A DNA stretch of 64,000 nucleotides from an uncultured Candidatus Saccharibacteria bacterium (GCA_964399865.1 CAYNRJ010000001.1:475984-539983); one strand, 5' to 3'. Shown: positions 25,696-59,059, counted from the first letter of the stretch. Made by a program: numbers and translations. The notes: generated from the sequence alone by a model not told the origin.

Positions 25696-25714
25696 TTTCT
25701 TTAAATCCCTTACA

Positions 25715-25741
25715 AAAATCCCGCTCGAAGCGGGATTTTTG
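25715..25741 (+). terminator. Rho-independent terminator after hup
   Basis: AAATCCCGC-tcgaa-GCGGGATTT followed by TTTT. Confidence 0.75.
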
Positions 25742-25752
25742 CATATATACCA

Positions 25753-25771
25753 GTGCGGGATGGGAGAATCG
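25753..25771. repeat. 19-nt exact duplicate of the tRNA-Gly(TCC) 3' end (acceptor/T-arm segment), a pseudo-tRNA fragment
   Basis: gtgcgggatgggagaatcg is identical to 25840-25858 (the tRNA 3' terminus plus one flanking nt), 87 bp away in the same orientation. Confidence 0.6.
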
Positions 25772-25840
25772 CCCTAACCTCTCGCCTTCGCATCAAGACG
25801 CACTCATGCGCACTACTTATCCCCTCTTCGTTACACTCTG

Positions 25841-25911
25841 TGCGGGATGGGAGAATCGAACTCCCGACCTCAGTTTGGAAAACTGACGTTTTACCATTAA
25901 ACTAATCCCGC
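25841..25911 (-). tRNA. tRNA-Gly (anticodon TCC)
   Basis: Manual cloverleaf: acceptor GCGGGAT/ATCCCGC, D-stem GTTT/AAAC, anticodon stem TCAGT/ACTGA with loop TTTCCAA, T-arm GGGAG-TTCGATT-CTCCC; no encoded CCA. Coordinates +/-1. Confidence 0.8.
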
Positions 25912-27194: not shown

Positions 27195-27445
27195 TAATAA
27201 TTTCGGGGCGCCGAGAATCGAACTTAAGCCTACTTCCCCTTCGGGGCCACGGATGTGCCCCGCACATCCGGTCAGTTTCTTTGTCGGGCTGCTGGGAATT
27301 TCCCTCGACCTAAGGCTCGCCGTCGCTCACCTTAGTCTGGGCACCGCCTCGCGGTTCGTCCTTCTGGCCTCACATCGCTCCGGCGTTCAATTCCAGACGC
27401 AGGCAAAGTGGGTTTGCCTGCTCACCCCTCATTCACTTCGTTCAA
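27195..27445 (-). ncRNA. GC-rich highly structured non-coding region downstream of tRNA-Pro (possible unclassified ncRNA, or the remnant of an integrated element)
   Basis: No ORF; several strong hairpins on the minus strand (GGATGTGCGGGGCACATCC, CCCCGAAGGGG, GCAGGCAAACCCACTTTGCCTGC); contains a 17-nt tRNA-Pro 3'-end duplicate. The scan excluded RNase P RNA and SRP RNA motifs and did not resolve a tmRNA fold. Confidence 0.3.
27282..27298. repeat. 17-nt exact duplicate of the tRNA-Pro 3' end
   Basis: tcgggctgctgggaatt is identical to 27446-27462; on the minus strand the copy folds as a T-arm/acceptor-like minihelix (GTCGAGGGAAATTCCCAGCAGCCCGAC). Confidence 0.6.
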
Positions 27446-27516
27446 TCGGGCTGCTGGGAATTGAACCCAGTCTACTTGCTCCCAAAGCAAGCGTACTACC
27501 GGTATACGACAGCCCG
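27446..27516 (-). tRNA. tRNA-Pro (anticodon TGG)
   Basis: Manual fold: acceptor CGGGCTG/CAGCCCG (C1:G72, typical of bacterial tRNA-Pro), D-stem GTAT/GTAC, anticodon stem CTTGC/GCAAG with loop TTTGGGA, T-arm CTGGG-TTCAATT-CCCAG; no encoded CCA. Confidence 0.8.
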
Positions 27517-27587
27517 TGCGTCGAGTAAGCATACTAGCACACTCTTAAAGGACATTCCTCCCCTCTCCATGTCCTTTATGATGTCCT

Positions 27588-27989
27588 TTAGATCTCCCCA
27601 TCCAATACCTGTTCAAACAGGCGGCAGCGGGCCGTTTTAGTCGATTCAGACAGTATTACTCCGACCACATCGATTTGGTATTCTCGATCATCACCTGAAG
27701 CCTCCATATATAGGGTCGCCGTTCTGGCAACCTTCCTTAACTTTGACGCATGGACCAATTCCTCAGGCCTGTAGTCCATTTCACGTGAAATGTCGGGCAG
27801 AATTTCACGTGAAATAGCCTTTACCTCTATAAAACGCACCTGGTTATGTATCTCGGCTATTATATCAATCTCTCCCCAGGGCTTTCGGTAGTTCCTCTCA
27901 ATGATCTTGTATCCCTTACCCTCAAGGAACTGACAGGCAATGCTTTCACCTAAGTTGCCGACTTGCCTTCTGTCAGTCCCAACCTTCAT
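27588..27989 (-). CDS. YraN/UPF0102-family putative endonuclease
   Basis: 133 aa; 'GNLGESIACQFLEGKGYKIIERNYR...GEIDIIA...VRFIEVKA' matches the UPF0102 pattern; the CDS itself contains two copies of a 14-bp palindrome. Confidence 0.65.
   Translation of the reverse strand: MKVGTDRRQVGNLGESIACQFLEGKGYKIIERNYRKPWGEIDIIAEIHNQVRFIEVKAISREILPDISREMDYRPEELVHASKLRKVARTATLYMEASGDDREYQIDVVGVILSESTKTARCRLFEQVLDGEI
27778..27815. promoter_or_regulatory. Two copies of the perfect palindrome ATTTCACGTGAAAT (27778-27791 and 27802-27815) inside the yraN-like CDS
   Basis: Each encodes the ISRE(I/M) peptide in-frame; a third copy lies at 28049-28062 in the upstream intergenic region. Confidence 0.5.
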
Positions 27990-28048: not shown

Positions 28049-28062
28049 ATTTCACGTGAAAT
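28049..28062. promoter_or_regulatory. Third copy of the ATTTCACGTGAAAT palindrome, about 60 bp upstream of the yraN-like start; candidate operator
   Basis: Exact 14-bp palindrome with a CACGTG core, in a 420-bp AT-rich ORF-free region. Confidence 0.45.
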
Positions 28063-28410
28063 GTAGCAAATATCGTAACTACGTAACATAAAATATTCAT
28101 GGACAAGGTAACGCCGCTCTGTGGGCATTATCTCTATATTTCAAGCCATTTTTCTAGGAATATACTCAAATCCCTATAGGATAAAGACACCTAAGGTACG
28201 TATTTTCATGTCCTTTATCCCCATATCCACAGACTTTTCCACAGTTTCTAAGGCTTTTTCATGGTTATTAGTTCCAAAGAGTCTGTTAGATCGGTAGTTC
28301 TCGAGACAATTCGTCCTTGATGTCCTTTAGAAAACAACTCCGGTGATTTGTCAATACTGGAACACAATTTATCCTTGACCGAAAGACTCGTGATGTACTA
28401 GGTTTGCATC

Positions 28411-32827: not shown

Positions 32828-33742
32828 CTAAGAGCGACGTCTTTTGCCGTGAAATGCTTTGTGCACTTCGCGAAGATGTTTGTCTGTGACGTGCGTATAA
32901 ATTTGTGTTGTCGCGATATTCGCGTGTCCTAAAAGTGCTTGGACTGAACGCAGGTCAGCACCTCCTTCGAGTAGATCAGTCGCAAATTGGTGGCGAATAA
33001 TGTGGGGGCTCACTTTTCGCGTGATGCCGGCTTTCACTGCATATCTTTTTACGATCCTTTGCACTGTTCGGACACTCAGGCGTGGAGCATCTTTATCATT
33101 TTTTCCAGGTGCTCCGCTCCCCACGAATAACGCTTCGCCCATATCGCTTCGCTTCTTTAGATATTCAGCGACTGCTTTCTTTGCTGAGGGAGAAAGAAAC
33201 ACTACACGAACTTTCTCACCCTTGCCTCGGACAGAAAATTCATCTCGCGTAAGATCAATGTCTGCATTCAGGGAACATAGTTCCGAGACGCGGAGCCCGG
33301 TCGAGAATAAAAGCTCGAGTATCGCACGGTCCCTAAGCGCAGAGTCGGATTCTCCAACGGGCGCTTTCATCAGACGCTCAAGCTCGTCGGAGGTAATAAG
33401 ATCCAAGTCTCTCGAACCTACTTTCGCGAGCTCGATCTTTTCTGGTTGAAGAGAAACGACATCGATCTTGCGTAAATATTTTAAGAACGCACGAATAGCG
33501 ATCATGTAGTAATTCTGCGTTTTCTTTTTCATTCCTCCTCCTACGCCCGCTTGTCGATTAAGCCACATGCGAAATTCGCGCACAGCAGATTCTGTTACCT
33601 TCGCTGGAGAGGTTATCTTTGTCTGTGCAAGAAAACGGGTGATGTAATGATCATAATTCTCAACAGTCTTTATACTCCTACCTTTTTCTATCTCGAGATA
33701 TTCGAGGAATTGAGTTTTGAGCGCCTTAAGATCCGTTGCCAT
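32828..33742 (-). CDS. Tyrosine site-specific recombinase (XerC/XerD-like)
   Basis: ORF 32828..33835 trimmed to MATDLKALK; catalytic region 'HIIRHQFATDLLEGGADLRSVQALLGHANIATTQIYTHV' (R...H-x-x-R...Y). Confidence 0.8.
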   Translation of the reverse strand: MATDLKALKTQFLEYLEIEKGRSIKTVENYDHYITRFLAQTKITSPAKVTESAVREFRMWLNRQAGVGGGMKKKTQNYYMIAIRAFLKYLRKIDVVSLQPEKIELAKVGSRDLDLITSDELERLMKAPVGESDSALRDRAILELLFSTGLRVSELCSLNADIDLTRDEFSVRGKGEKVRVVFLSPSAKKAVAEYLKKRSDMGEALFVGSGAPGKNDKDAPRLSVRTVQRIVKRYAVKAGITRKVSPHIIRHQFATDLLEGGADLRSVQALLGHANIATTQIYTHVTDKHLREVHKAFHGKRRRS

Positions 33743-33847
33743 TCCTCTAAGTATGCCATGTCGCACAACATAGATTGTCCCGACACATGTCTGTGTCGGA
33801 AAATCTGACGATATTGTGCAACATATACGTCGCACAATATCGACTCC

Positions 33848-48234: not shown

Positions 48235-49125
48235 ATGAAATTACTTCGTGCTCATTTCATTCTTTTTCTCATTGGAGTTACCGCACTACTCCTTGTGATC
48301 GGTGCGTTCGCACTAAAAGAATATTCGCCAGCTCAAAATACACCTAGGACAATCGCATGGGGAGGCCTTGGAGGCACCCCGTATTATCCACTTTCGGGCG
48401 AAAGAGCGATCGAAAGTAATCCTGCAGAGGAGAATATCTACAGCTCAATTCAAAGCGGGCCGCCGTTCTATTATTCAACGACTAACTCGGAAGCGGCGGA
48501 TGAGGAAGATGACACGTTCGACGTCGACGCGTTTCTTGCATATCTCAAGGGAGAAACGAGGACATCAGAAACTGCGGTCGAGGAGGAAAAACCGCTTTCG
48601 TTTCTTGAGAATCCATACTCATTTATCACAAATGGGGTCTCCTTCCCGAGTAGCTCCCTTACGAAAGAACGCACACCAATACAGCAGGCTTTATATGAGT
48701 ACGGAAATAAGGCTGGAAAGATCATTCAGACATTTGAAGACTCGAATCAAAACATGGCTGATGTAGTGCAGGCACAATCTGAAGATCCGGAAGACCCTCT
48801 TAAGGTCGCTGCCCTTATAAAACTAGCGGACTCTCTAGCAGATGTAGGGGTTTCACTAGAAGAACTCTCCTCTGTTCCAGCAGAAGCGGCCAATCAGAAC
48901 GCCAAACTTGCGACAAGCTATAAAGATATGGGTGCAAAACTTGCGCTCGTGCCTAACGCCATGACCGAAGACAGTAGGGTAGAGACAATGCTTACCTATA
49001 ATGCTGCCGCCGAATCGTTCGTCACAAATTACGTGGCTATCGTCACTCTTTTCTCGATCATGGAGGTCACATTTTCTCCTGATGAGCCGGGTAGTGTGTT
49101 CACTTTCACGATGACAGGGTTTTAA
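48235..49125 (+). CDS. Bitopic membrane protein (N-terminal TM plus ~260-aa extracytoplasmic domain); first gene of the T4SS-like operon, possibly VirB8-like
   Basis: 'MKLLRAHFILFLIGVTALLLVIGAFALK' TM anchor; the architecture (short N-terminus, 1 TM, ~230-260 aa domain) matches VirB8-type proteins, but no sequence signature was recognised. Confidence 0.5.
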   Translation: MKLLRAHFILFLIGVTALLLVIGAFALKEYSPAQNTPRTIAWGGLGGTPYYPLSGERAIESNPAEENIYSSIQSGPPFYYSTTNSEAADEEDDTFDVDAFLAYLKGETRTSETAVEEEKPLSFLENPYSFITNGVSFPSSSLTKERTPIQQALYEYGNKAGKIIQTFEDSNQNMADVVQAQSEDPEDPLKVAALIKLADSLADVGVSLEELSSVPAEAANQNAKLATSYKDMGAKLALVPNAMTEDSRVETMLTYNAAAESFVTNYVAIVTLFSIMEVTFSPDEPGSVFTFTMTGF

Positions 49126-49185
49126 GCCTCGACTGTCCACTCATTGTCCCCACGAAATCCCCAGGAAGCGGTTATACTTTATGCA

Positions 49186-50001
49186 ATGAAAGTAAGCGCG
49201 TTGAAGGGCGTGAGTTTTTCGCGTATGGCGATAACTGCAACACTGTCGATCGCAGCTGTTATTGGAGTTTCTGCGTGGCAACTAACAGCCCCTCTCCGGA
49301 GCGGGGGTGAAGAACTCGCTACCGGGAGTAACGATTCCACTATCACGATGGGTCGGACTGGAGATCCGGATCGTCAGTTTGATTGGCAGAAAAGTCTTGA
49401 GGGAATCTCGTCCGACGATCCAGATGGACTTTCAAATATCGGTGAAAATGTTGTTGAAACTTTGGTTGGTTCATACGTCGCGCTAAAAGACGCGGGAGTG
49501 TATACGCCAGAACAAGGGGCACAAATAGCTGGTGTAATTGCAACAGATCTCAAGGCCGATATTTCATTCCGTCTCTATGACACTGACGACATTAAGACCG
49601 ACACAAGCACTTCTTTCACTCGTTCGCTCGCATATCGAAGCGATATGCGCATCGCCCTCGAGCCTCTTTTGGAAAATCCTACGTATGAACTCGAGATACT
49701 CGGAGGATATATGGAGACTAAGGACCCAAAGTATCTCGCTGAACTGGAGAACATGGTCCGAAATTACAATGTTGCTATCGAGAATGCCGCACAAGTAGTC
49801 GTTCCGAAAGACGCGATCACATACCATATCAGTGTTCTGAACGCACTCTCTGAATTCGGCGCGACACTCGCACAAATGGTTAAGCACATTGACGATCCCT
49901 TCGCTTCTGCGGCGCTCCTTCGGACATTCAATGGCGCAGAGGCAAAAATGTTTACTTCGTTTGATGAGCTCGCAGACTATTTCCGTAAATCTACCTCATG
50001 A
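49186..50001 (+). CDS. Bitopic membrane protein, distant paralog-like of the upstream gene
   Basis: ORF 49144..50001 trimmed to MKVSALKG; TM 'MAITATLSIAAVIGVSAW'; same architecture as the 48235 gene. Confidence 0.5.
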   Translation: MKVSALKGVSFSRMAITATLSIAAVIGVSAWQLTAPLRSGGEELATGSNDSTITMGRTGDPDRQFDWQKSLEGISSDDPDGLSNIGENVVETLVGSYVALKDAGVYTPEQGAQIAGVIATDLKADISFRLYDTDDIKTDTSTSFTRSLAYRSDMRIALEPLLENPTYELEILGGYMETKDPKYLAELENMVRNYNVAIENAAQVVVPKDAITYHISVLNALSEFGATLAQMVKHIDDPFASAALLRTFNGAEAKMFTSFDELADYFRKSTS

Positions 50002-51593
50002 AAACAAGCTCCCTCATTTTCATACCGTTTAAGTTTGCTATCGCAACAATTACTCTGTTTCTCTTACTGACCTCTTTCGCTCAAGCTCAAACAGATACCT
50101 CAACCACCACTGCAGGATTATCGAGCTCAGGTATATTCGACTGCAACAGTAAAGCCGGAGCTGAGGCGATGAGCAGTGTCGGAACAAAAAGCACGATTCA
50201 AAGCTTATATGTCCCAGTTTCTGACGCAGGAGTAACCTTAAACACCGGATCTTTGGTCTACAAGGAATGTGTTCTCGACCCTATAAACACGCGCATGCGA
50301 GAGAACGCTGCTTTCTCGCACGTTCAACTCGGCATAAAGGCGTTTAACAAGGGGGCTGATGGTGAACCAATGTTTATAAAAGATTACATCGCGAAAGTTT
50401 CGGAGCGCAGCGACAAAACATTCCTACGTACATTTGAAGAAGGGGAGCTTGATACACTCAATCCAGCCTTTAAGGATGAAGTTAAGCGCGCGATCGCTGA
50501 AGATTATAAAACTCAGACCCGTGAGCCGAACAAGGTACTAGAATGTTCGTACAAAGGCGATCTCGCAAAAGTATACGCAGGACAACCGGAAGATATTTGG
50601 GGAGCTATCATGGCCATTGCAGAGCCAGCATGTAATCCGGTTGGAGCTTACAATCTCGCGCAAGAATATATTATAGACAATATCGCATCAGATAAGGAAG
50701 AGATGCTCTTCCGCCTTAATAACAGCAACGCCATCAAAGATGTCCAAACATACAACGAGGAGACCGGGCGATACGAGACCCTCACTCCAGGTATCATCGT
50801 TGCTGAAAATGTTCAGCAACTTATAACATCCGGCTTCCGGCAACTTGAGAACGCCGACGAGATAGGTCAAATGGTTGATGCGCTATATTCTGGCCTCTCC
50901 ACACAAGTAGTTTCCGATACTCGAGGACTCGCGGGAGTAACCGAAGGATTCGCTGGCCAGCCTTCTTATCTCGACCAAATTGGTGACACGCTCCGCAAAA
51001 ACCTTCGCGATGCAGCGGTTAATATAGCTTTGGGAATTCTAAAAGGCGCGAAGCAAACCGAGATTACCTATTTCAATGCATTGAATTCGATTGCACTTAC
51101 CCTAACGGCAACGATAGGGGATCTTCGCCAGGCAGAAGCACTATGTTGGGCAGAAGTAGTACCAAAAGCTCAAGTCTATGCAAGTGCAAATAATATTCAA
51201 ATAACCGTTGCTACTTCAACCCAATTTTCACAAGCGGTTATCAATGCACAGATAACATCTCTCGCTTCAACAACGATAACGGATATACGAAAGAGTGAGA
51301 CCGCTCTCTCCCTCATAGATCATTTAATAGAGGGCATTACGAACACGACTTCTCCGGATGCCCAGCGTGTAGCTCTTCAACAGTTAGATTCTCTCGTGGC
51401 ACAAGGAGCCCTACACGGAGAATACGATGCCCAGCAGGCAGTGAAGCGAAGAGATGAGATAAAGCCGGCAATGGAAAATCTCGTGGAAGATACGGTTGTA
51501 GCATGGGCTGATTCTGCTGACGTAAATGTCGGCTGGTGTAACGTCAATAATCCTGCGGTCGCCCAAAAATGGGTCGAGGAGTGGAGAAACTGA
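49998..51593 (+). CDS. Secreted protein (signal peptide), unknown function, T4SS-like operon
   Basis: 'MKTSSLIFIPFKFAIATITLFLLLTSFAQA' signal peptide; 531 aa; 4-nt overlap with the upstream gene. Confidence 0.55.
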   Translation: MKTSSLIFIPFKFAIATITLFLLLTSFAQAQTDTSTTTAGLSSSGIFDCNSKAGAEAMSSVGTKSTIQSLYVPVSDAGVTLNTGSLVYKECVLDPINTRMRENAAFSHVQLGIKAFNKGADGEPMFIKDYIAKVSERSDKTFLRTFEEGELDTLNPAFKDEVKRAIAEDYKTQTREPNKVLECSYKGDLAKVYAGQPEDIWGAIMAIAEPACNPVGAYNLAQEYIIDNIASDKEEMLFRLNNSNAIKDVQTYNEETGRYETLTPGIIVAENVQQLITSGFRQLENADEIGQMVDALYSGLSTQVVSDTRGLAGVTEGFAGQPSYLDQIGDTLRKNLRDAAVNIALGILKGAKQTEITYFNALNSIALTLTATIGDLRQAEALCWAEVVPKAQVYASANNIQITVATSTQFSQAVINAQITSLASTTITDIRKSETALSLIDHLIEGITNTTSPDAQRVALQQLDSLVAQGALHGEYDAQQAVKRRDEIKPAMENLVEDTVVAWADSADVNVGWCNVNNPAVAQKWVEEWRN

Positions 51594-51601
51594 TCTTGCA
51601 T

Positions 51602-54142
51602 ATGGAATACCTAAAACGAATGCTAGGACATCATAAAATAGGAATACTTGCGTCACTCTTCATCGCAATCGTGTTCTCCCCCTTTGTATTCAGTAATAAC
51701 AGCTTCGAGGTAAGCAGCGCGCTGGCAGCAACTCCTGAGGAAATCGCCGCAAGCGAAGGATTTCAAGCAATAATGGCAAACGTTCCGGCAGAAAATCTTG
51801 CCGCCTTCAACGGGTGCTTACAAAACCCTCCAAGTGGTCCATCGATCAATGAAAAACCTAAAGAGGGGCTCGCACTTTTTGCGAGCTATTGTTATGACCT
51901 CACTGTGGGCGAGCTACCTGACGAGTTAGTGCCGGGTTTTAAGCCACCCGAAGGCTATGTGGGCGGATGTGGCCTCAACTTTGGTTGTTATTGGAAAAAA
52001 CTCGTTGCAACCATTGCTTGGATACCGTCTGGACCAAGCGCATGGCTCCTTACTACTGTAGGGCAGTTCTTCAATTACCTCGTCGATCATACTATTATTG
52101 ACTTCAAGGGGACCTTAGAACAAATGGGGGAGAGTATTGATAATGCATGGACTGCATTCCGAGATATTGCGAACATTGTCATCATCGGAATGTTTGTATT
52201 CATTGCTCTCTCTCTAATCCTCGGGCTCAAGGAATACGGCGAGCGGAAAATGATAGCGCGCGTACTCATTGTTGCGGTGTTAATCAACTTCAGCTTACTT
52301 TTCACAAAGTTAATTATCGACGCTTCACACTTTACTGCGTATCAGTTCTACAATGCAGCTGGGAATATTGGTGGCCCCGTTGCCGACGAGGCCAGAGCTG
52401 CGGTTGACATTGAAGACGAAACAATTCCTGCGGCGGAGCCAGGTATCGCAGGTCAATTCTTAGCTGCTATGAGTATTACCCGGGTTGGGGAGATACATAA
52501 CATACTTTTTCAGATGCAGCAGAATGGTAATGGGATGTGGAACACAATACTCTTTGGCTTTTTTATGGGCGTTATGTTTCTCCTTGCTGCACTTGTGCTC
52601 TTATACGGCTGTTTCTTACTGATTGCACGGGGGCTACTCTTAGTATTTCTGATGATGACGGCACCTCTTGCTTTCGCGAGTTGGCTCATCCCCAAATTCG
52701 CAGGAGATGGTTGGAGCAAATGGTGGGATTCACTCTTACGCACTGCGATATTTGCACCTCTTCTGATGATTTTCTTGTGGGCTTCTCTCACTATAGCGAC
52801 TCAAATCAACGAGGCAGGCGAGGGACTGGGAGCGCTGATCGATCATCCTGAAAACGGCATCGGTATCGGGGCTCTTTTCAACTATGTCTTCGTGCTTGGG
52901 TTGCTTTTCATGTCCATAAAACTTGCAAGCAAATTCTCCGGCACAATTGCAGGATTCAGCGTCGCTGCAATGGCTACTGCCGCACCAATCACTCTCGGAT
53001 CGCGAGCGCTCGCAGCTCCACTCCGCGGTATCGGAGGTAAATATGCAACCAAATATCAAGAAAGTCGTATGGATCAAGCAAAGGCCGCTAGAAGGAACGT
53101 CGGGGTCGCTACTGGACTTAGAACGAACGCGTTGAAAGCTGCGCACGATTTCCGAGAAGCTGGTCTGCATGGCTTTGCAGATAGGGAACAGGCGGAGGCT
53201 AAGAAACAACAAAAGATTGCGGAGGAACAGAAGAAAATTGCGGCAATCAAAACAAAACGCGCGATGCGAGGTGCGACAGTTGCCGGGAACAAGATGAATC
53301 TTATGAATACTGAGACCGCTAAGAAGGTGCTCGGGGCAGTGGGGGTTACAGGGTTCATGGCTGGAGCGACGCCAAAGGAAGTACAGAGTTATCACGGAAA
53401 AATTGAAGAGAGAGCCAAGGCGGCGGAGAAAATTGCATCAAAACTTGCTCCAAAGCAAGAAGAAATCGATAAAGCGCGGGATCTTGCGGGAGACAGAATG
53501 AAAGAACAGCGCAAAATTGAAGAGGCACAACTGGAGGCAACAAGAAGGGTGGCTGAGGAGGAGGCCAATAACACAAAGGCTCTTGAGTATTTGCCTGAGC
53601 AATTGGAAACTGCCATTCGAGAATCTACACGAGTTAAGGCAGACGCTGCACGAAATAAGACTGCGATCGATGCCAGTAGGAGGGCAGGCACTATAAGCGC
53701 AGATGAACATCAACGACAATTAAGGATCGAGAATGATCGTGTTAAAGCCGCAGACGCCGCCGTAAAAACTGTTAAAGATCGCATTGACGTTATCGATCAG
53801 CCCGTGAAAGATATTGCAAAAAATATCGAAAAGTTCCGTGGAGAAACAAAAGGTGCAATCGAGAAAGCCAAACATGAAGGGGGTCAGGCTGTTGTAGAGA
53901 GCGGAGCCGGGGTAGCCGAAGTAATCGGTCGACGGTACGGAGGTACTCTGACTCGTATAGCTGGAGCCCTTACTGGAGCCAATGCTCACGTCGCTCACGA
54001 AACGAGAGAAATGTACCTTAAGAATCGCGGTGCGATGAATAAATTAAAGGATATTCTTAAGGGTGCAGGTGTTACGGAGGGAGAAGCTGCGCATGGAGGG
54101 GGCTCAGCACCTGCAGGGGGCGGGGGAGGCGATCATCACTAA
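51602..54142 (+). CDS. Polytopic membrane protein, VirB6/TrbL-like, with a long Lys/Ala/Glu-rich coiled-coil C-terminal tail
   Basis: ORF 51569..54142 (start 51569 or 51602); at least 8 hydrophobic helices in residues ~200-480; an extracytoplasmic Cys-containing loop (GGCGLNFGCYWKK); C-terminal ~350 aa of KAA/EEQ coiled-coil ending GGGSAPAGGGGGDHH. Sits two genes upstream of the VirB3-like + VirB4 pair, as in Gram-positive T4SS. Confidence 0.55.
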   Translation: MEYLKRMLGHHKIGILASLFIAIVFSPFVFSNNSFEVSSALAATPEEIAASEGFQAIMANVPAENLAAFNGCLQNPPSGPSINEKPKEGLALFASYCYDLTVGELPDELVPGFKPPEGYVGGCGLNFGCYWKKLVATIAWIPSGPSAWLLTTVGQFFNYLVDHTIIDFKGTLEQMGESIDNAWTAFRDIANIVIIGMFVFIALSLILGLKEYGERKMIARVLIVAVLINFSLLFTKLIIDASHFTAYQFYNAAGNIGGPVADEARAAVDIEDETIPAAEPGIAGQFLAAMSITRVGEIHNILFQMQQNGNGMWNTILFGFFMGVMFLLAALVLLYGCFLLIARGLLLVFLMMTAPLAFASWLIPKFAGDGWSKWWDSLLRTAIFAPLLMIFLWASLTIATQINEAGEGLGALIDHPENGIGIGALFNYVFVLGLLFMSIKLASKFSGTIAGFSVAAMATAAPITLGSRALAAPLRGIGGKYATKYQESRMDQAKAARRNVGVATGLRTNALKAAHDFREAGLHGFADREQAEAKKQQKIAEEQKKIAAIKTKRAMRGATVAGNKMNLMNTETAKKVLGAVGVTGFMAGATPKEVQSYHGKIEERAKAAEKIASKLAPKQEEIDKARDLAGDRMKEQRKIEEAQLEATRRVAEEEANNTKALEYLPEQLETAIRESTRVKADAARNKTAIDASRRAGTISADEHQRQLRIENDRVKAADAAVKTVKDRIDVIDQPVKDIAKNIEKFRGETKGAIEKAKHEGGQAVVESGAGVAEVIGRRYGGTLTRIAGALTGANAHVAHETREMYLKNRGAMNKLKDILKGAGVTEGEAAHGGGSAPAGGGGGDHH

Positions 54143-54147
54143 TAGGT

Positions 54148-54723
54148 ATGGATACAAAAATGACTCAAGAAGAATTAAATCAGAAATTGCGCGAGCGATT
54201 TCAAGAGATTCCTAAAGTACTCCAAGAGGCTATTACCTCTGCAAACGTAGAGAAACAGTTACGAGAACTCGCCACAAAACATAAGTTGCATGTGGACATG
54301 TGGCAATTACTCGAGAATGAGGTCATCGTTACACTCCTCGGTCTTCAGCCAGCAGATGACCTCGCCGCCAACCTCCAAAACGACCTCGGCCTACCCAAAG
54401 AAGCATCGATTGCGCTCGCAAGAGATGTATCTACGATAGTTTTCGCGCCAGTAAGACAAGAGCTCGAGCGGACACTGGAACATCCTGAGGCAAAGTCCGA
54501 AGAGGAGAGTGACGTTGATACCGTAAGGACACAAATACTTGAGCAAAAGCCTACACCAACTAGTACTTCACTGCCTCCGTTGGTAAAACCAGCGACCCCA
54601 CCCCCACAACCACCCACTCAAAAGATTGAAAGAGGTCCTGCGTCGGGCGCATATGTGCCCGGAGAAGTATCGAGCGCGCGAAAATCGATCGTGGATGATC
54701 CGTACAGAGAAGCGCCGCAATGA
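54148..54723 (+). CDS. Hypothetical protein with a Pro-rich C-terminal region, T4SS-like operon
   Basis: 191 aa; no TM; 'PPLVKPATPPPQPPTQ'. Confidence 0.45.
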   Translation: MDTKMTQEELNQKLRERFQEIPKVLQEAITSANVEKQLRELATKHKLHVDMWQLLENEVIVTLLGLQPADDLAANLQNDLGLPKEASIALARDVSTIVFAPVRQELERTLEHPEAKSEEESDVDTVRTQILEQKPTPTSTSLPPLVKPATPPPQPPTQKIERGPASGAYVPGEVSSARKSIVDDPYREAPQ

Positions 54724-54852
54724 AAAACTAATTTAATTCACTCTGGCGTCAATACGCTAAGAGCTTGCGTGTTATAATTCTGCCACGGGAGACTGGAAAC
54801 TAGCGCTCGTTTTCTCCTCGAAGCTAGCTGCTAGTCCCTGGCAGCTATTTAT

Positions 54853-55353
54853 ATGCAATTTCAGGTACCACAATTCATCGAGGTGGAGGATAAAATCTTC
54901 GGTCCTCTCACATTCAAGCAATTTGTGTATGTCGCAGGAGGAGCCGGGGCAGCCTATCTTTTTTGGCGAACCCTCCCATTCTTTTTTTCCGTCCCCCTCA
55001 TCATGGGGATTGGAGCCCTTGCCGCAAGCTTAGCCTTCTTTAAATACAACGGGCGCCCTTTTATTCTCGCGATGGAGCATGGCTTCTACTATCTTGTACG
55101 AACAAAACTATATTTGTGGAACAACGCGGCAAAAACTGCAAAACCTAGGAAATTAGCGACGAAAGCGACACTACCTACTAGTCAGGTATATGTGCCTACA
55201 CTTTCACAAAGCAAATTACACGAACTGGCATGGAGTTTGGACATTAAAGAACGTATTGCAGGAGGCACCGTTTCAAGCGAAGAGCGAGAAGCGGCCGCCC
55301 CGACAGATAGCATCGTCGCTCCAATACGCACCGCCCGCGATGCGAGAGTATAA
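54853..55353 (+). CDS. Small two-TM protein, VirB3/PrgI-like (directly precedes the VirB4 homolog)
   Basis: 166 aa; 'FKQFVYVAGGAGAAYLFWRTLPFFFSVPLIMGIGALAASLAFF' hairpin of two helices; position and topology as for VirB3-family proteins. Confidence 0.5.
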   Translation: MQFQVPQFIEVEDKIFGPLTFKQFVYVAGGAGAAYLFWRTLPFFFSVPLIMGIGALAASLAFFKYNGRPFILAMEHGFYYLVRTKLYLWNNAAKTAKPRKLATKATLPTSQVYVPTLSQSKLHELAWSLDIKERIAGGTVSSEEREAAAPTDSIVAPIRTARDARV

Positions 55354-55358
55354 AATCT

Positions 55359-56045
55359 ATGCCACCAGGACTTGAAAACTTACGCGACAGAAAGAAATCC
55401 ACTCAAGATTTCGTGCCCGTGCGTGAAGTGCGGGATGGAGTCGTCGTACTTAAGGATGGAGGATTACGCGCAATTCTTCTCGCATCTTCTCTTAACTTCG
55501 CACTGAAATCAGAAGACGAACAGACTGCGTTCATCACGCAATTCCAAAGCCTTCTAAACTCACTGGATTTTTCTGTGCAGATTTTCATAGAGTCTCGCAT
55601 GCTCGATATAAGACCTTACATTGCAACTCTCGAGGAAGCATATAAAAAGCAGCTCGACGATCTGATGCGAATCCAGATCCGTGAATATATAGAATTCATC
55701 AAGAGCTTTACTGAAGCTGCAAATGTCATGACAAAGAACTTCTTCGTCGTCGTGCCGTATTCCGGCGGTCCACAGATCGGCAAGAGTGGGGGAGGGCCCT
55801 CACTCCCATGGAGCAAAAAAAAGAACAGCACTGAGGAGGCGAACAAGAGCTTCGAAGAGCAGGTGACTCAGCTCGAACAAAGAGTATCTGTCGTGCAGCA
55901 AGGTCTGATCCGCACAGGTGTCCGCACTGTTCAGTTAGGAACCGAGGAGGCAATCGAGCTTCTCTACAAAATGTTCAACCCTGGCGAAGAAGGGAAACCG
56001 ATGTCACTTAACAATACCGAAGAGGCGCCCGCGACCAGCCAATAA
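55359..56045 (+). CDS. VirB4/TraC/TrsE-family protein, N-terminal portion (ends at an in-frame TAA)
   Basis: 'QDFVPVREVRDGVVVLKDGGLRAILLASSLNFALKSEDEQ' matches the conserved N-terminal region of VirB4/TrsE-type ATPases; the ORF stops at TAA 56043-56045 and the next ORF starts 3 nt later in the same frame. Confidence 0.65.
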   Translation: MPPGLENLRDRKKSTQDFVPVREVRDGVVVLKDGGLRAILLASSLNFALKSEDEQTAFITQFQSLLNSLDFSVQIFIESRMLDIRPYIATLEEAYKKQLDDLMRIQIREYIEFIKSFTEAANVMTKNFFVVVPYSGGPQIGKSGGGPSLPWSKKKNSTEEANKSFEEQVTQLEQRVSVVQQGLIRTGVRTVQLGTEEAIELLYKMFNPGEEGKPMSLNNTEEAPATSQ

Positions 56046-56048
56046 TGT

Positions 56049-57998
56049 ATGGGATTTAAAGACTTACTGCCATTTGGAAAGAAACCAACGCCGCCCGAGG
56101 CGCGAGTTCTTCCTGTGTTACCTGAGGAAATATACGAAACGGGAGTTCTTGACCTCCAGGATGTCATCGCACCGCACGCACTCCGTGTTAATTCACGTGA
56201 GCTCGACCTCGGCGAGAAGATCGCGCGAACTTTTTTCGTGATCTCTTACCCCCGCTTCCTCACGACAGGATGGTTCGCCCCGATCATCAACATGGACAAG
56301 GTCTTGGATATTGCCATCTACGTCCACCCGATGGACACAAATGAGATGCTTCGAAAGTTCCAGAAAAAAGTGGCTGAGGTGCAGAGTCAGATATCGACAC
56401 GTGAAGAGAAGGGGATGGTGCGAGACCCTATGCTCGATACTGCATACAGCGACTTGGAAACTTTGCGTGACTCTCTGCAGCAGGCACAGGAGCGTATTTT
56501 CGAAGTGGGATTGTACTTAACAATTTACGGTAATACCCGCGAGGAAATCGATAAGGTGGAATCTGAGGTGCGTTCAATTCTCGAATCGCGTCTCGTATAC
56601 ATTCGTCCTGCACTATTCCAACAGGAGAGTGGGTTCAGAAGTGTCTTGCCGCTCGCTACCGATGAGCTTGATGTCCATACAAAACTCAACTCCGCTCCTC
56701 TCTCTTCGATCTTTCCATTCATATCATTCGACCTTACGAGCGATCGCGGCATCCTCTATGGCGTCAACCGCCACAATTCTTCTCTCATTCTCTTCGATCG
56801 TTTCTCGATGGAAAACTACAACTCGGTCACCTTCGCAAAATCCGGTGCCGGCAAGTCGTACATGACCAAGCTCGAGATATTGCGATCTCTCATGTTCGAA
56901 ACCGAGGTTATCGTAATCGACCCAGAACGCGAGTACGAATATCTCGCAGAAACAGTGGGCGGGCGATACTTCAACATCTCACTCTCCTCTGAGCACCACA
57001 TAAATCCATTCGATCTTCCTGTCCCTCGCGAGGATGAAAACCCATCAGATATTTTGCGCAGTAACATCATTACTCTCGTAGGACTTTTCCGCATTATGCT
57101 CGGGGGCCTTACGCCTGAAGAAGATGCGATCATTGATAAAGCCATAACCGAAACCTACGCATTGAAAGACATCACACCGGACGCGAACTTTGCCGCAATA
57201 GAGCCACCGCTTCTCTCTGACTTTGAACTGGTACTTTCCGGACTAGAAGGATCGGAGTCGCTCGTCGCTCGTCTTTCTAAATATACGAAAGGAACTTGGT
57301 CGGGATTCATGAATAGACCAACGAACGTCGACATGAATAAGAGATTGATTGTTTTCTCGGTCCGCGACATGGAGGATGACTTGAAACCAATTGCGATGTA
57401 CATCATCACACATCACATTTGGAATGCGGTTAGGAAAGAATTGCGTAAACGTCTTCTCGTCATCGATGAGGCGTGGTGGATGATGCGTTCAGAAGATACC
57501 GCATCATTTCTCTATTCCGTTGCTAAACGAGGACGTAAATACTATCTCGGAATTTCAACCATTACCCAAGACGTATCCGACTTCCTCAATTCGCCGTATG
57601 GAGTTCCGATGATAACTAACTCTTCTATCCAAATACTTCTACGCCAATCTCCGACATCCGTTGACCTCGTGCAATCAACATTTAAATTATCCGATGAGGA
57701 AAAATACCTCCTGCTTGAATCCGATGTGGGGGAGGGAATATTCTTTGCGGGCCTTAAACACGTAGCGGTAAAAGTTATCGCATCATACACAGAAGATCAA
57801 ATCATCACGTCCGATCCATCTCAGGTTCTCGCGATCAGGAAAGCTAAGAGGGATCTTGAAGATGCAAATTCAGGTGAAGCACCCCCGCTTCCAGAGGTCA
57901 AAAAAATCCCTGAAATGCCGGATCGCCCAGTTGCGCCCCAAACCCCAGCCGTTCCACCCGCACCAAACATCGCGCCACCCAAAGACATGGCAATATGA
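56049..57998 (+). CDS. VirB4/TraC/TrsE-family T4SS ATPase, central and ATPase portion
   Basis: 649 aa; Walker A 'TFAKSGAGKSYMTKLEI', Walker B 'RLLVIDEAWWMM', 'GISTITQDVSDF' helicase-like motif; in frame with and contiguous to the 55359 ORF, the two together being about 877 aa (typical VirB4 length). Confidence 0.75.
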   Translation: MGFKDLLPFGKKPTPPEARVLPVLPEEIYETGVLDLQDVIAPHALRVNSRELDLGEKIARTFFVISYPRFLTTGWFAPIINMDKVLDIAIYVHPMDTNEMLRKFQKKVAEVQSQISTREEKGMVRDPMLDTAYSDLETLRDSLQQAQERIFEVGLYLTIYGNTREEIDKVESEVRSILESRLVYIRPALFQQESGFRSVLPLATDELDVHTKLNSAPLSSIFPFISFDLTSDRGILYGVNRHNSSLILFDRFSMENYNSVTFAKSGAGKSYMTKLEILRSLMFETEVIVIDPEREYEYLAETVGGRYFNISLSSEHHINPFDLPVPREDENPSDILRSNIITLVGLFRIMLGGLTPEEDAIIDKAITETYALKDITPDANFAAIEPPLLSDFELVLSGLEGSESLVARLSKYTKGTWSGFMNRPTNVDMNKRLIVFSVRDMEDDLKPIAMYIITHHIWNAVRKELRKRLLVIDEAWWMMRSEDTASFLYSVAKRGRKYYLGISTITQDVSDFLNSPYGVPMITNSSIQILLRQSPTSVDLVQSTFKLSDEEKYLLLESDVGEGIFFAGLKHVAVKVIASYTEDQIITSDPSQVLAIRKAKRDLEDANSGEAPPLPEVKKIPEMPDRPVAPQTPAVPPAPNIAPPKDMAI

Positions 57999-59059
57999 AA
58001 AAGGCAGCAGCGCCATTCCTATTTCTTGCGCTTATTTTTTTCTCACTGCTAGTGCCCAGCACTCCTGCCCACGCTCAATTAGTGTTCCCCGGGACAACAC
58101 CAGATCTCGCTCTTGAAGCAGTGCCCGAAAACCCTCGACCGAATTCAAACATTACTCTTCGGATAAGAAGTGTGCTGCTCGACCTCACCCAAAGCGAGAT
58201 CACGTGGTACGTGAATGGCACTGTTACAAGTACTGGTATTGGGATTACTGAAACTAGCGTAGCAACGGGAGCGCTGGGAACAGAGACCCGGGTGCGTGTT
58301 GAAGCAATTGGAGAAGCAGGGAGCGCTTTTGCCGTTGGGGTATTTCGTCCTACTGACATAGATCTTCTGTGGGAGGCTGATTCGTATGTGCCCCCATTTT
58401 ATCGAGGTCGCGCGCTTCCATCTGCGGGAAGTACCGTTCGCTTATTTGCGGTACCTCGATTTACGAGAGTCGGATCTACTTCCTTTTTACCATCGAGTGA
58501 ACTCATGTATACCTGGAAAAGGAACGATCAAACTATTCCAAAGGCATCTGGCTTCGGAAAAGACACGGTCCAAATTGAAACGTCCATTATATCGAGCGGC
58601 GACGTTATATCCGTAGAAATAGCAACCGCAGACGGGATACTGGAAGGATCTGCTTCGGTACGGTTACCTTCGGTAGAACCTTCTCTCGTGTTATACGAAA
58701 ATCATCCAGTCTTCGGGGTTCTGTATCACCGTGGATTGCAGAGCCCTGCCTCAGTCACTGAGTCCGAAACAACATTTATAGCTGTTCCGTATTTCGCGCC
58801 TACTCGAAATCCTGATAACGGGTCACTCATTTATAAATGGCGGGTTGGTAACTCATCTATACCAAGCAGTTTTACGAAACCTAGCGCAATCACAATCAAC
58901 GCAGAGGGAACAAATGGTGTAGCTCTCATACAGCTCGCCGTTACACACGCGTCGAATTTCTTACTGAACATACAGAACGCATGGGCCGTGACTCTCGCTG
59001 GAACAGACACATCAACCACTGTGAGTCCTTTCACGGACCCTTTCACAAGTGGTGAATAA
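57995..59059 (+). CDS. Secreted beta-rich protein (signal peptide, Ig-like repeats), T4SS-like operon
   Basis: 'MKKAAAPFLFLALIFFSLLVPSTPAHA' signal peptide; 4-nt overlap with the VirB4 stop. Confidence 0.55.
   Translation: MKKAAAPFLFLALIFFSLLVPSTPAHAQLVFPGTTPDLALEAVPENPRPNSNITLRIRSVLLDLTQSEITWYVNGTVTSTGIGITETSVATGALGTETRVRVEAIGEAGSAFAVGVFRPTDIDLLWEADSYVPPFYRGRALPSAGSTVRLFAVPRFTRVGSTSFLPSSELMYTWKRNDQTIPKASGFGKDTVQIETSIISSGDVISVEIATADGILEGSASVRLPSVEPSLVLYENHPVFGVLYHRGLQSPASVTESETTFIAVPYFAPTRNPDNGSLIYKWRVGNSSIPSSFTKPSAITINAEGTNGVALIQLAVTHASNFLLNIQNAWAVTLAGTDTSTTVSPFTDPFTSGE

What the first reader, a model, noticed from the sequence alone, without database searches (positions are those of the whole stretch)
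25753..25911. tRNA-Gly(TCC) is followed 87 bp downstream by an exact 19-nt copy of its own 3' end
gtgcgggatgggagaatcg occurs at 25840-25858 (the tRNA 3' terminus plus 1 nt) and again at 25753-25771. Partial tRNA 3'-end direct repeats are the classic scar of integrase-mediated insertion into tRNA genes (attL/attR). Here the two copies bracket only ~68 bp, which contains a 4-bp stem-loop (CGCA-ctca-TGCG). This may be the remnant of an element that has been deleted down to its att sites, or a tRNA-like minihelix used as a processing or termination signal. The same pattern recurs at tRNA-Pro (separate finding).
Basis: seen in the sequence. Interest (0 to 1): 0.5.

Follow-up and report, generated by a model that had tools for sequence, protein, structure and literature searches.

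The report
Decayed copy of tRNA-end element
The 19-base repeat behind tRNA-Gly is real: it is the far end of a broken copy of a small, gene-less, folded element that sits behind many different tRNA genes in these tiny (CPR) bacteria, always ends in a copy of its host tRNA's tail, and matched no catalogued family in my searches.

Summary
An exact 19-nt direct repeat (25753-25771 and 25840-25858) brackets 68 nt downstream of tRNA-Gly(TCC), which lies on the minus strand. The same layout at tRNA-Pro(TGG) has a 17-nt repeat and 145 nt between the copies.

The window comes from a Candidatus Kaiserbacteria-type genome (Patescibacteria). The Pro insert is a full-length member of a family found in at least 120 metagenome contigs and in 14 places in 80 related genome loci, always in tRNA 3' flanks. 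It has no ORF and follows at least 20 tRNA isoacceptors. Its 84-86-nt core shows strong base-pair covariation. It ends in a copy of the host tRNA from T-loop G57 to the discriminator, and it often carries a 5' arm antisense to the host tRNA 3' end.

The Gly spacer keeps the first ~43 and last ~25 nt of such an element and has lost ~77 nt in between, so it is a dead remnant. An orthologous empty site (L016) shows that the Pro copy is a 162-nt insertion.

Best reading: a small insertion element specific for tRNA gene ends, moved by an unidentified trans-acting enzyme. An integrase island "deleted to its att sites" is not supported. The family is absent from Rfam 15 and the phage and plasmid collections.

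The parts
25840..25911 (-). tRNA-Gly(TCC), the host gene. Its last 19 nt (25840-25858) are repeat copy 1.
   Evidence: ARAGORN; Rfam tRNA 73.7 bits at 25841-25911.
25825..25839 (-). Leader of the remnant element (agagtgtaacgaaga). It carries the family motif AACGAAG, also present after tRNA-Pro.
   Evidence: the same motif occurs in L005, L014, L020 and L193.
25819..25824 (-). GGGGAT, a remnant of the 5' arm that is antisense to the acceptor 3' strand (ATCCC).
   Evidence: Aligns with GGGGATG or GGGATG of L020 and L037.
25797..25818 (-).
   Evidence: Aligns with the AGC-stem-CUGC-stem-GCGU hairpin of full-length members.
25772..25796 (-). Last ~25 nt of the type-A core (..GGCGAGAGGTTAGGG). About 77 nt between this piece and hairpin H are deleted relative to intact members.
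   Evidence: Alignment A4 shows one internal gap of ~77 columns; nhmmer hit of 25752-25789 to model positions 124-161, E = 5e-4.
25753..25771 (-). 3' arm: exact copy of tRNA-Gly positions C56-A73 plus one base (repeat copy 2).
25713..25741 (.). Perfect 13-bp hairpin flanked by an A-run and a T-run. It looks like a bidirectional terminator shared by the tRNA/remnant (minus strand) and the HU gene (plus strand). In relatives without the element it directly follows the tRNA.
   Evidence: Inverted repeat I24; empty sites in L005, L025, L039 and L040. The consensus terminator scan did not list it.
27446..27516 (-). tRNA-Pro(TGG), host of the intact element.
27301..27445 (-). Intact type-A element, made of leader 27429-27445, 5' arm GGGGTG 27423-27428, hairpin H 27397-27422, anti-T-arm CTGGAATTGAAC 27385-27396, and 84-nt core 27301-27384.
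   Evidence: Covariance-model hit 27283-27398, 101 bits (this sequence was in the training set); coordinates checked; RNA fold z = -2.5.
27284..27300 (-). 3' arm of the Pro element: exact copy of tRNA-Pro A57-A73.
   Evidence: L016 has the orthologous empty site.

Best explanation
The 19-nt repeat is the distal, target-derived end ('3' arm') of an internally deleted, dead copy of a small ORF-less element. Members of this family sit at the 3' end of tRNA genes in Kaiserbacteria and other Patescibacteria.

An intact member consists of:
- a subfamily-specific 5' part that starts at the tRNA end, often with an arm antisense to the host tRNA 3' end;
- an 84-86-nt core that folds, on the tRNA-sense strand, into four or five covarying helices;
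- directly after the core, a copy of the host tRNA from T-loop position 56/57 to the discriminator (or to CCA where CCA is encoded).

Shown: family membership, the insertion relative to an orthologous empty site, the host-matched arms, the covariation, and the ~77-nt deletion in the Gly copy.

Inferred: the family spreads as a non-autonomous insertion element. It enters at the tRNA gene end and leaves the tRNA intact, and the tRNA tail ends up duplicated. This happens either through cuts staggered between the T-loop and the gene end, or through an RNA or single-strand intermediate whose ends are set by the tRNA-like fold. A trans-acting enzyme not encoded in the element would catalyse the step. 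The antisense 5' arm is then kept matched to the adjacent tRNA by hairpin (quasipalindrome) template switching. After insertion, copies decay by truncation of the arm and by internal deletion, as at tRNA-Gly.
For: - Intact copy in the same window: the tRNA-Pro element has the same leader motif.
- The Gly spacer aligns to both ends of intact members with a single ~77-nt gap (nhmmer E = 5e-4) and has no core.
- Empty versus filled sites: the L016 tRNA-Pro is directly followed by the sequence that follows the 3' arm in the window, which implies a 162-nt insertion. Many relatives have tRNA-Gly followed directly by the terminator.
- Spread: at least 120 metagenome contigs. Of 130 hits, 89 lie less than 400 nt downstream of a same-strand tRNA, covering 20 anticodon classes, with arms equal to the host tail.
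- In 861 kb of related loci, all 14 covariance-model hits are in tRNA 3' flanks.
- Boundaries: the left boundary is sharp at G57, and the repeat-length mode is 17-19 nt.
- Tandem arrays occur.
- Cores 91-93% identical sit behind different tRNAs.
- Arms decay without compensating changes in the 5' arm.
- Structure: 91.9% of cells paired against 72.3% in shuffles; covariation score 0.529 against 0.182; 0 of 500 shuffles reach either.
Against: - No enzyme was identified. The window holds only one Xer-like recombinase and no reverse transcriptase or transposase.
- Unpaired nucleotides are strongly conserved across divergent copies, which could mean a host function rather than selfish spread.
- Similar cores at different tRNAs could come from gene conversion rather than new insertions.
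- Where CCA is encoded, the duplication includes it (L148, L154). This fits a boundary set by function or RNA processing better than a fixed cutting distance, but rests on two cases.
- Many copies have a terminator-like hairpin between the tRNA and the core, so co-transcription is not assured.
- The metagenome sample was selected with a core pattern, so decayed members and other subfamilies are under-sampled.
- The taxonomy of the metagenome contigs was not determined.
Confidence: 0.65

Rival explanations
1. The family is a host-beneficial, tRNA-linked structured RNA rather than a mobile element. It would be made with or next to the tRNA, for example as a tRNA-like minihelix RNA processed by RNase P, 3' processing enzymes and the CCA-adding enzyme, or as a regulator pairing with the tRNA 3' end. 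The Gly copy would then be a pseudogene of it.
For: - Covariation with G-U pairs outnumbering A-C about 4:1 in the well-aligned helices, on the tRNA-sense strand.
- Invariant unpaired motifs (CGGAG, GGUGCCCAG, GAGAG) across divergent copies.
- The 5' arm tracks the host T-loop even at positions absent from the element's own 3' arm: GTCC hosts have GGAC in 6 of 6 cases.
- Some copies stand alone behind promoter-like motifs.
- In the window, the terminator follows the 3' arm.
Against: - Presence is patchy at orthologous loci.
- There are many decayed or truncated arms with no compensating change, an internally deleted copy, and tandem arrays.
- Terminator-like hairpins often lie between the tRNA and the core.
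- Only a minority of tRNAs carry the element (18 of 162).
Confidence: 0.2
2. This is a classical attL/attR scar. A tyrosine-integrase island or prophage integrated into the T-loop of tRNA-Gly carrying its own tRNA 3' end, and was later deleted almost completely.
For: - The identity block runs from the T-loop to the tRNA 3' end, the intact tRNA faces the insert, and a displaced 3' fragment lies in direct orientation. This is the layout described for tRNA-targeting islands (PMC4383910).
- The duplication includes CCA where it is encoded.
- A tyrosine recombinase gene exists in the window at 32828-33835.
Against: - The same ~145-nt ORF-less sequence with fixed ends recurs behind 20 anticodon classes of tRNA in many genomes. 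Independent deletions would not leave the same remnant each time.
- No integrase or cargo lies between any pair of repeats examined. L109, the single 2.3-kb case, has no mobility genes.
- There were no hits in viral contigs or in the phage or plasmid collections.
- An element-borne tRNA end would create chimeric tRNAs on every change of host tRNA.
- The window recombinase looks like the housekeeping Xer next to mgsA (the Xer assignment is my inference from its domains and neighbour).
Confidence: 0.08
3. The downstream copy is the remains of a tandemly duplicated tRNA-Gly gene, or an unusual second tRNA.
For: The 87-nt period is close to tRNA plus spacer. GGGGAT in the spacer resembles the tRNA 5' end GCGGGAT.
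Against: - ARAGORN and Rfam find no second tRNA even at E <= 10.
- The spacer aligns to the element family, not to the tRNA body.
- The copy starts abruptly in the T-loop, exactly as in more than 70 family members.
Confidence: 0.03

Closest known systems
tRNA-targeting genomic islands and prophages of tyrosine integrases (attL/attR with a regenerated tRNA and a displaced 3' fragment; Islander, PMC4383910)
   Same: An intact tRNA faces the insert. The direct repeat runs from the T-loop to the tRNA 3' end, the displaced copy decays, and tandem occupancy of the same tRNA occurs.
   Different: The insert is 130-165 nt (up to ~230 nt in one subfamily), with no integrase or other ORF. It has a conserved single-strand fold with covariation and occupies 20 anticodon classes of tRNA with closely related cores. 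It also has an antisense 5' arm.
MITEs and other non-autonomous insertion elements
   Same: Small, ORF-less and multi-copy, with a patchy distribution. They are flanked by direct repeats of target sequence and accumulate dead copies.
   Different: There are no conserved terminal inverted repeats; the only inverted repeat is made of host tRNA sequence. The duplication is 17-19 nt and follows the tRNA gene end. Targeting of tRNA 3' ends is strict. Stems evolve by compensatory change while the loops stay fixed. No autonomous parent was found.
Casposons (Cas1-type integrase; Aciduliprofundum boonei, PMC5137440)
   Same: Insertion at the 3' end of a tRNA gene next to the T-psi-C-loop segment, with a long target duplication (15 bp).
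   Different: The casposon duplication overlaps the tRNA by only 5 bp. Casposons are large and have terminal inverted repeats, Cas1 and PolB. None of these features was seen here.
SINE-like, target-primed retroposons and reverse-transcriptase-dependent elements
   Same: No ORF, a long duplication, dependence on an upstream promoter, and a conserved RNA-type fold with an invariant 3' junction. A tRNA-derived sequence sits at one end.
   Different: No such system is known in bacteria (my knowledge). There is no A-rich tail and no 5'-truncated copies among 67 examined. The link to a reverse transcriptase is only anecdotal: a DGR-type enzyme lies within 0.3-4 kb in 3 of ~120 loci.
Folded single-strand recombination sites (integron attC, CTX-phage attP) and guide-bearing transposon RNAs (IS110 bridge RNA, TnpB omega RNA)
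   Same: The structure is conserved more than the sequence. Segments complementary or identical to the target lie next to a conserved scaffold. The 17-19-nt target-identical tail directly after the scaffold looks like a 3' guide.
   Different: The attC R''/R' boxes are absent. Both arms cover the same target segment on opposite strands rather than its left and right halves. No recombinase or nuclease gene is associated. A guide matching the adjacent intact tRNA gene would target the element's own locus. These comparisons rest on my recall of those systems.

Membership tests
tRNA-integrating genomic island / prophage att scar | An intact tRNA followed in direct orientation by a displaced fragment of its own 3' end | tested here: met
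   19-nt (Gly) and 17-nt (Pro) exact copies.
tRNA-integrating genomic island / prophage att scar | A tyrosine integrase gene and cargo between the repeats, in this genome or in relatives | tested here: not met
   There are 68 and 145 nt between the repeats, with no ORF. Relatives carry 130-230-nt inserts. The L109 2.3-kb case has no mobility domains. There were no viral, phage or plasmid hits.
MITE | Conserved terminal inverted repeats specific to the element | tested here: not met
   The left end varies by subfamily while the right end is conserved. The 5' arm / 3' arm inverted repeat consists of host tRNA sequence.
MITE | Many dispersed copies flanked by target duplications | tested here: met
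   At least 120 contigs; duplications match the host tRNA tail.
Casposon or casposon-derived element | Cas1-type integrase, terminal inverted repeats, and a 14-15-bp duplication lying mostly beyond the tRNA end | tested here: not met
   The duplication lies inside the tRNA, G57 to discriminator. There are no terminal inverted repeats and no ORF. A Cas1 acting in trans was not searched genome-wide.
Target-primed retroposon (SINE-like) | Reverse-transcriptase partner, 5'-truncated copies, and variable duplications | tested here: inconclusive
   Duplications are 17-19 nt with some variation. There is no truncation inside the core in 67 copies. A DGR-type reverse transcriptase lies near 3 loci only.
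tRNA gene / tRNA pseudogene | A cloverleaf recognised by tRNA finders, or homology to the tRNA body | tested here: not met
   ARAGORN and Rfam (E <= 10) find nothing at 25753-25839 or 27284-27445. The Gly spacer aligns to the element family instead.
Any Rfam 15 RNA family | A covariance-model match | tested here: not met
   No relevant hit at E <= 10 for the window region or for L037.
The tRNA-end element family defined here (type A) | The 84-86-nt core with helices P2-P5 | tested here: not met
   For the Gly remnant, the covariance model R1 gives 9.3 bits, E = 0.72; the core is deleted. The Pro copy meets the feature at 101 bits.
The tRNA-end element family defined here (type A) | A leader/5' arm/hairpin H at the tRNA end, and the core terminus ..GAGAGG..GGG followed by the host tRNA tail | tested here: met
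   Alignment A4; nhmmer E = 5e-4; exact 19-nt arm.

The most novel reading that the evidence does not exclude
The family is a new class of miniature mobile element, or mobile RNA gene, specialised for tRNA gene ends. Its single-strand fold carries a target-antisense arm and a target-identical 3' tail next to a conserved scaffold. Insertion would then be directed or primed by nucleic-acid pairing with the tRNA gene and carried out by a trans-acting enzyme not yet identified (a reverse transcriptase, a Cas1-like enzyme or a recombinase). Specificity would be reset automatically at each new tRNA.
Probability: 0.3. Interest if true: 0.85.

Novelty: new variant of a known kind. Interest (0 to 1): 0.62.

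Why it matters
- Annotation: partial tRNA 3' ends behind tRNA genes in Patescibacteria need not signal prophages or islands. Here they mark a compact element family that current RNA and mobile-element catalogues do not contain.
- Biology: the family shows how a very small element can occupy the one type of site that every genome must keep, by leaving the tRNA intact and duplicating its tail. Its host-matched antisense and sense arms raise the possibility of pairing-directed targeting.
- Practice: copies are presence/absence markers between close relatives. They create repeats and palindromes at tRNA genes, and may help explain local rearrangements such as the flipped tRNA orientations seen among relatives.
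- If the core turns out to be a functional RNA, it would be a new structured RNA class tied to tRNA genes in a poorly understood phylum.

Tried and rejected
- Chance repeat: rejected by shuffles.
- Second tRNA, tmRNA or known RNA: ARAGORN and two permissive Rfam scans found nothing.
- Core as the decayed antisense of a tRNA body: no similarity beyond the T-arm, judged by eye.
- Group I intron in a tRNA: the Patescibacteria introns described in PMC13011429 lie in the anticodon loop and are much larger. Not relevant here.
- Integron attC-like boxes: the 5' arm ends in ATCGAAC, which resembles the inverse core site, but the expected GTT... partner at the 3' end is absent. Rejected from reading the sequence.
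- Population polymorphism in the same strain: the Logan contigs carrying the identical HU or YraN proteins break inside the tRNAs, and the protease was not on record. Uninformative.
- Autonomous parent: L109, the only 2.3-kb case, has three ORFs without mobility domains and looks like a local duplication.
- Reverse-transcriptase link: a DGR-type enzyme lies next to a stand-alone copy in L094, with homologues in L196 and L144, but no template/variable repeat pair lies nearby. Kept only as a lead.
- Literature: five full-text searches found no description of such elements.
- Terminator scan: it did not flag the obvious hairpin at 25713-25741, so I rely on the inverted-repeat result.

Full report
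**1. The observation**

tRNA-Gly(TCC) lies on the minus strand at 25840-25911 (ARAGORN; Rfam tRNA 73.7 bits, ending at the discriminator 25841). GTGCGGGATGGGAGAATCG occurs exactly at 25840-25858 and 25753-25771. Read on the tRNA strand, this is CGATTCTCCCATCCCGCAC: T-loop C56 through discriminator A73 plus one base, repeated 68 nt downstream of the tRNA.

Shuffled sequence gives a mean of 0.03 matches even with three mismatches allowed. The parallel case at tRNA-Pro(TGG) (minus strand, 27446-27516) is also real, with a 17-nt copy at 27284-27300 and 145 nt between the copies.

**2. Where the window comes from**

The neighbours are trigger factor, ClpP, RNase Y, HU, a trypsin-like protease, a YraN-type protein and the CCA-adding enzyme. 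RNase Y retrieves 80 loci from Candidatus Kaiserbacteria, Paceibacterota and other Patescibacteria genomes at 62-87% identity. The same tRNA order Gly(TCC), Pro(TGG), Gly(GCC), Arg(TCG) recurs in many of the closer ones. The window is ordinary chromosome with no transposase or reverse transcriptase and a single Xer-like recombinase.

**3. The repeat belongs to a family**

- In the window plus 80 loci, 18 of 162 tRNAs are followed by a copy of their own last 15 nt with at most 3 mismatches. Many also have an inverted copy of the T-arm 25-55 nt downstream.
- The intervening sequences are homologous to one another and to the window's Pro insert.
- Of 130 hits, 89 lie less than 400 nt downstream of a same-strand tRNA, covering 20 anticodon classes: Gly, Glu, Arg, Ile, Lys, Pro, Cys, Trp, Ala, His, Phe and one tRNA that ARAGORN labels 'Stop' (tta). 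Most of the remainder are at contig ends. About ten copies genuinely stand alone, some behind promoter-like motifs.
- In nearly every case the bases after the core terminus ..CGNRGGN|GATTC equal the host tRNA's T-stem 3' strand, acceptor 3' strand and discriminator.
- A covariance model built from the core finds 14 places in 861 kb of the Kaiserbacteria-type loci. All 14 are in tRNA 3' flanks, and two strong hits were not used for training (L008 at 99 bits, L054 at 82 bits).

**4. Anatomy of an intact member (window Pro copy)**

| Part | Coordinates | Sequence or length |
|---|---|---|
| Leader | 27429-27445 | contains GAACGAAGTGAA |
| 5' arm, antisense to the acceptor 3' strand | 27423-27428 | GGGGTG |
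| Hairpin H | 27397-27422 | in most members a 9-bp stem with a CUGC loop |
| Anti-T-arm | 27385-27396 | CTGGAATTGAAC |
| Core | 27301-27384 | 84 nt |
| 3' arm | 27284-27300 | 17 nt |

The core is 84-86 nt in 55 of 67 non-redundant copies. The part between the tRNA end and the anti-T-arm is 12-285 nt long and differs by subfamily.

**5. The core is a conserved single-strand fold**

On 82 sequences RNAalifold predicts 25 pairs, 19 of them with compensatory double changes. The named structure has 91.9% of cells paired against 72.3% in column shuffles. Its covariation score is 0.529 against 0.182, and 0 of 500 shuffles reach either value. Controls with the partner slid by 1-3 columns give 35-49% paired.

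In the well-aligned helices, G-U pairs outnumber A-C about 49 to 12 (my count). The strand that folds is therefore the tRNA-sense strand. Unpaired motifs (CGGAG, GGUGCCCAG, GAGAG) are almost invariant. Rfam 15 has no matching family, and blastn finds nothing in the phage or plasmid collections.

**6. The 5' arm**

- The 5' arm is the reverse complement of host positions 53-64 and, in many copies, also of 65-74 and a few trailer bases. It is split by hairpin H. L005 is the clearest example, with 22 of 22 positions matching.
- It follows the host even at T-loop positions that the element's own 3' arm lacks. All six hosts with GTCCGATTC have GAATCGGAC, and the host with GTTCGAATCC has GGATTCGAAC.
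- Where the 3' arm has drifted from the host, the 5' arm agrees with the host at 45 positions, with the arm at 10 and with neither at 30. There is thus no sign of compensation toward the element's own arm.
- In many copies the tRNA 3' end, a terminator-like palindrome and the 5' arm form one long perfect palindrome (L179, L153, L085, L129, L150).
- My inference, not a test: this arm is kept matched to the adjacent tRNA by hairpin (quasipalindrome) template switching, an established mutational route. That would explain how it becomes host-specific without selection.

**7. The Gly spacer is a deletion derivative**

The spacer aligns with intact members at its first ~43 nt (leader, GGGGAT, degenerate hairpin H) and its last ~25 nt (..GGCGAGAGGTTAGGG) plus the arm. 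A single internal gap of ~77 columns removes the anti-T-arm and most of the core. A profile of the family hits 25752-25789 at E = 5e-4. The covariance model of the core does not hit it, and its fold is no better than shuffled sequence.

**8. Insertion is shown by empty sites**

In L016, which has the same tRNA-Pro allele, the tRNA is directly followed by aaaagcatttgaccgg.. In the window that sequence follows the 3' arm. The window therefore carries a 162-nt insertion made of 145 nt plus a 17-nt duplication.

For tRNA-Gly, relatives with the same tRNA tail (for example L040, and also L005, L025, L039) have the tRNA followed directly by the terminator and the HU gene. In L016, L020 and L037 the terminator follows the arm.

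**9. How it probably works**

Shown:
- DNA of fixed right end and defined left end is present or absent at tRNA ends.
- The tRNA stays intact.
- The tail from G57 (C56 when the core ends in C) to the discriminator, +1 or +2, is duplicated. The mode is 17-19 nt and the left boundary is sharp.
- Arrays of complete and partial units occur.
- Cores 91-93% identical sit behind unrelated tRNAs: Ile and Pro-CGG, Gly-TCC and Arg-TCT, Glu and Gly-CCC.
- Arms are often cut short abruptly.

Inferred: the family is a non-autonomous insertion element served by an enzyme encoded elsewhere.

Both repeat copies match each of 20 anticodon classes of host. A mechanism that duplicates target sequence therefore fits more simply than conservative recombination with an element-borne tRNA end, which would create chimeric tRNAs at every host change. 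Candidates are staggered cuts, or priming on the target by the element's tRNA-like tail.

Against a simple fixed-distance cut, the duplication includes CCA in the two hosts that encode it. Similar cores could also reflect gene conversion. Whether the folded strand acts as RNA or as single-stranded DNA is open. In the window the terminator follows the arm, so the element should be co-transcribed, but many other copies have a terminator-like hairpin before the core.

**10. Comparison with known systems**

- The layout copies that of integrase islands in tRNA genes (PMC4383910), but the defining integrase and cargo are absent.
- Casposons also insert at a tRNA end next to the T-psi-C segment with a 15-bp duplication (PMC5137440). 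That duplication lies mostly beyond the tRNA, and casposons have inverted terminal repeats and Cas1.
- MITEs share the size and copy behaviour but have element-specific inverted ends.
- Resemblances to SINEs, attC sites and guide-bearing transposon RNAs are functional analogies only.

**11. Verdict**

The finding is real and is explained as a relic. The family it belongs to appears undescribed, judged from Rfam, the phage and plasmid collections and five literature searches. It is unusual enough to merit follow-up. The mechanism remains unproven.

Noticed in passing
window 27203-27283 (minus strand): Downstream of the Pro element's arm lie a hairpin, a small CCCC-GAA-GGGG hairpin and GTTCGATTCTCGGCGCCCCGA (27203-27223). 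This last piece is the 3' end of the other, commoner tRNA-Pro(TGG) allele of relatives. The same block follows tRNA-Pro in L016 and L081. It may be a displaced fragment of an older tRNA-Pro allele or a third element type.
   Followed up: partly
L007, L008, L010, L012, L013, L015, L018 and others versus the window: Single tRNA genes are flipped between close relatives. tRNA-Gly(TCC) is on the RNase Y strand just upstream of the protease gene in some genomes, and on the opposite strand facing HU in the window and others. tRNA-Arg and tRNA-Pro also flip. The cause is unknown; the inverted tRNA-end repeats of these elements are one candidate.
   Followed up: no
L041 11380-11510 (downstream of tRNA-Pro): Three tandem 43-nt units follow the tRNA. 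Each is a short hairpin (ccaccgtaaggtgg) followed by the tRNA-Pro tail from the T-loop to the 3' end. This is a minimal form of tail duplication with no core.
   Followed up: no
L094 70-1077; also L196 2123-2946 and L144 5954-6181: A 335-aa reverse transcriptase (RVT_1) with the LGxxxSQ motif, which I recall as typical of diversity-generating retroelements, lies 300 nt upstream of a stand-alone element. Homologues lie 1-4 kb from elements in two other contigs. No template/variable repeat pair was seen.
   Followed up: partly
L013 13044-13280, L008 12238-12500, L016 8043-8190: A second subfamily (type B: AAAAATAACGAG-hairpin-CGACTATATTTTTGTAG ... CTTAGTGAGCTGACGC|CGATTC) shares the GAATCGAAAGGCGGAG junction with type A. 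It scores 20-35 bits with the type-A model and can sit in tandem with a type-A piece. L016 looks like a hybrid of the two.
   Followed up: partly
window 27778-27793, 27802-27817, 28049-28064: The palindrome ATTTCACGTGAAAT occurs three times, twice inside the 5' part of the YraN-type ORF and once upstream of it. It looks like a set of operator sites.
   Followed up: no
window 27546-27590, 28203-28217, 28315-28329; also L008, L010, L013, L018 downstream of tRNA-Pro: A repeated TAAAGGACA / TGTCCTTTA motif lies around the tRNA-Pro / YraN intergenic region and is conserved in relatives.
   Followed up: no
window 48235-63514: A run of co-oriented ORFs is mostly without Pfam hits. It includes a PrgI-family protein (54853-55353), a VirB4/TraG-type P-loop ATPase (56049-57998) and a 1071-aa protein with a T4SS pilin domain (60299-63514). 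This is a type IV secretion or conjugation-like cluster.
   Followed up: no
window 32828-33835 (minus strand): This is the only tyrosine recombinase in the window (Phage_integrase plus SAM-like N domain, 335 aa). It lies next to an MgsA/RarA ATPase and is probably the housekeeping Xer. No link to the elements was tested.
   Followed up: no
L001, L002, L203 (Logan contigs of the same strain): Short-read assemblies of this organism break inside the tRNA genes, for example at window position 25868. This is probably because tRNA k-mers are shared between community members. It hides these loci from population analysis.
   Followed up: partly
L083 ~9280, L114 ~7700, L145 (upstream of stand-alone or first-in-array elements): A shared motif AAAAAGTTCGCGC followed about 10-15 nt later by a TAnAAT-like box precedes several elements that lack an upstream tRNA. 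It may be a lineage-specific promoter.
   Followed up: no
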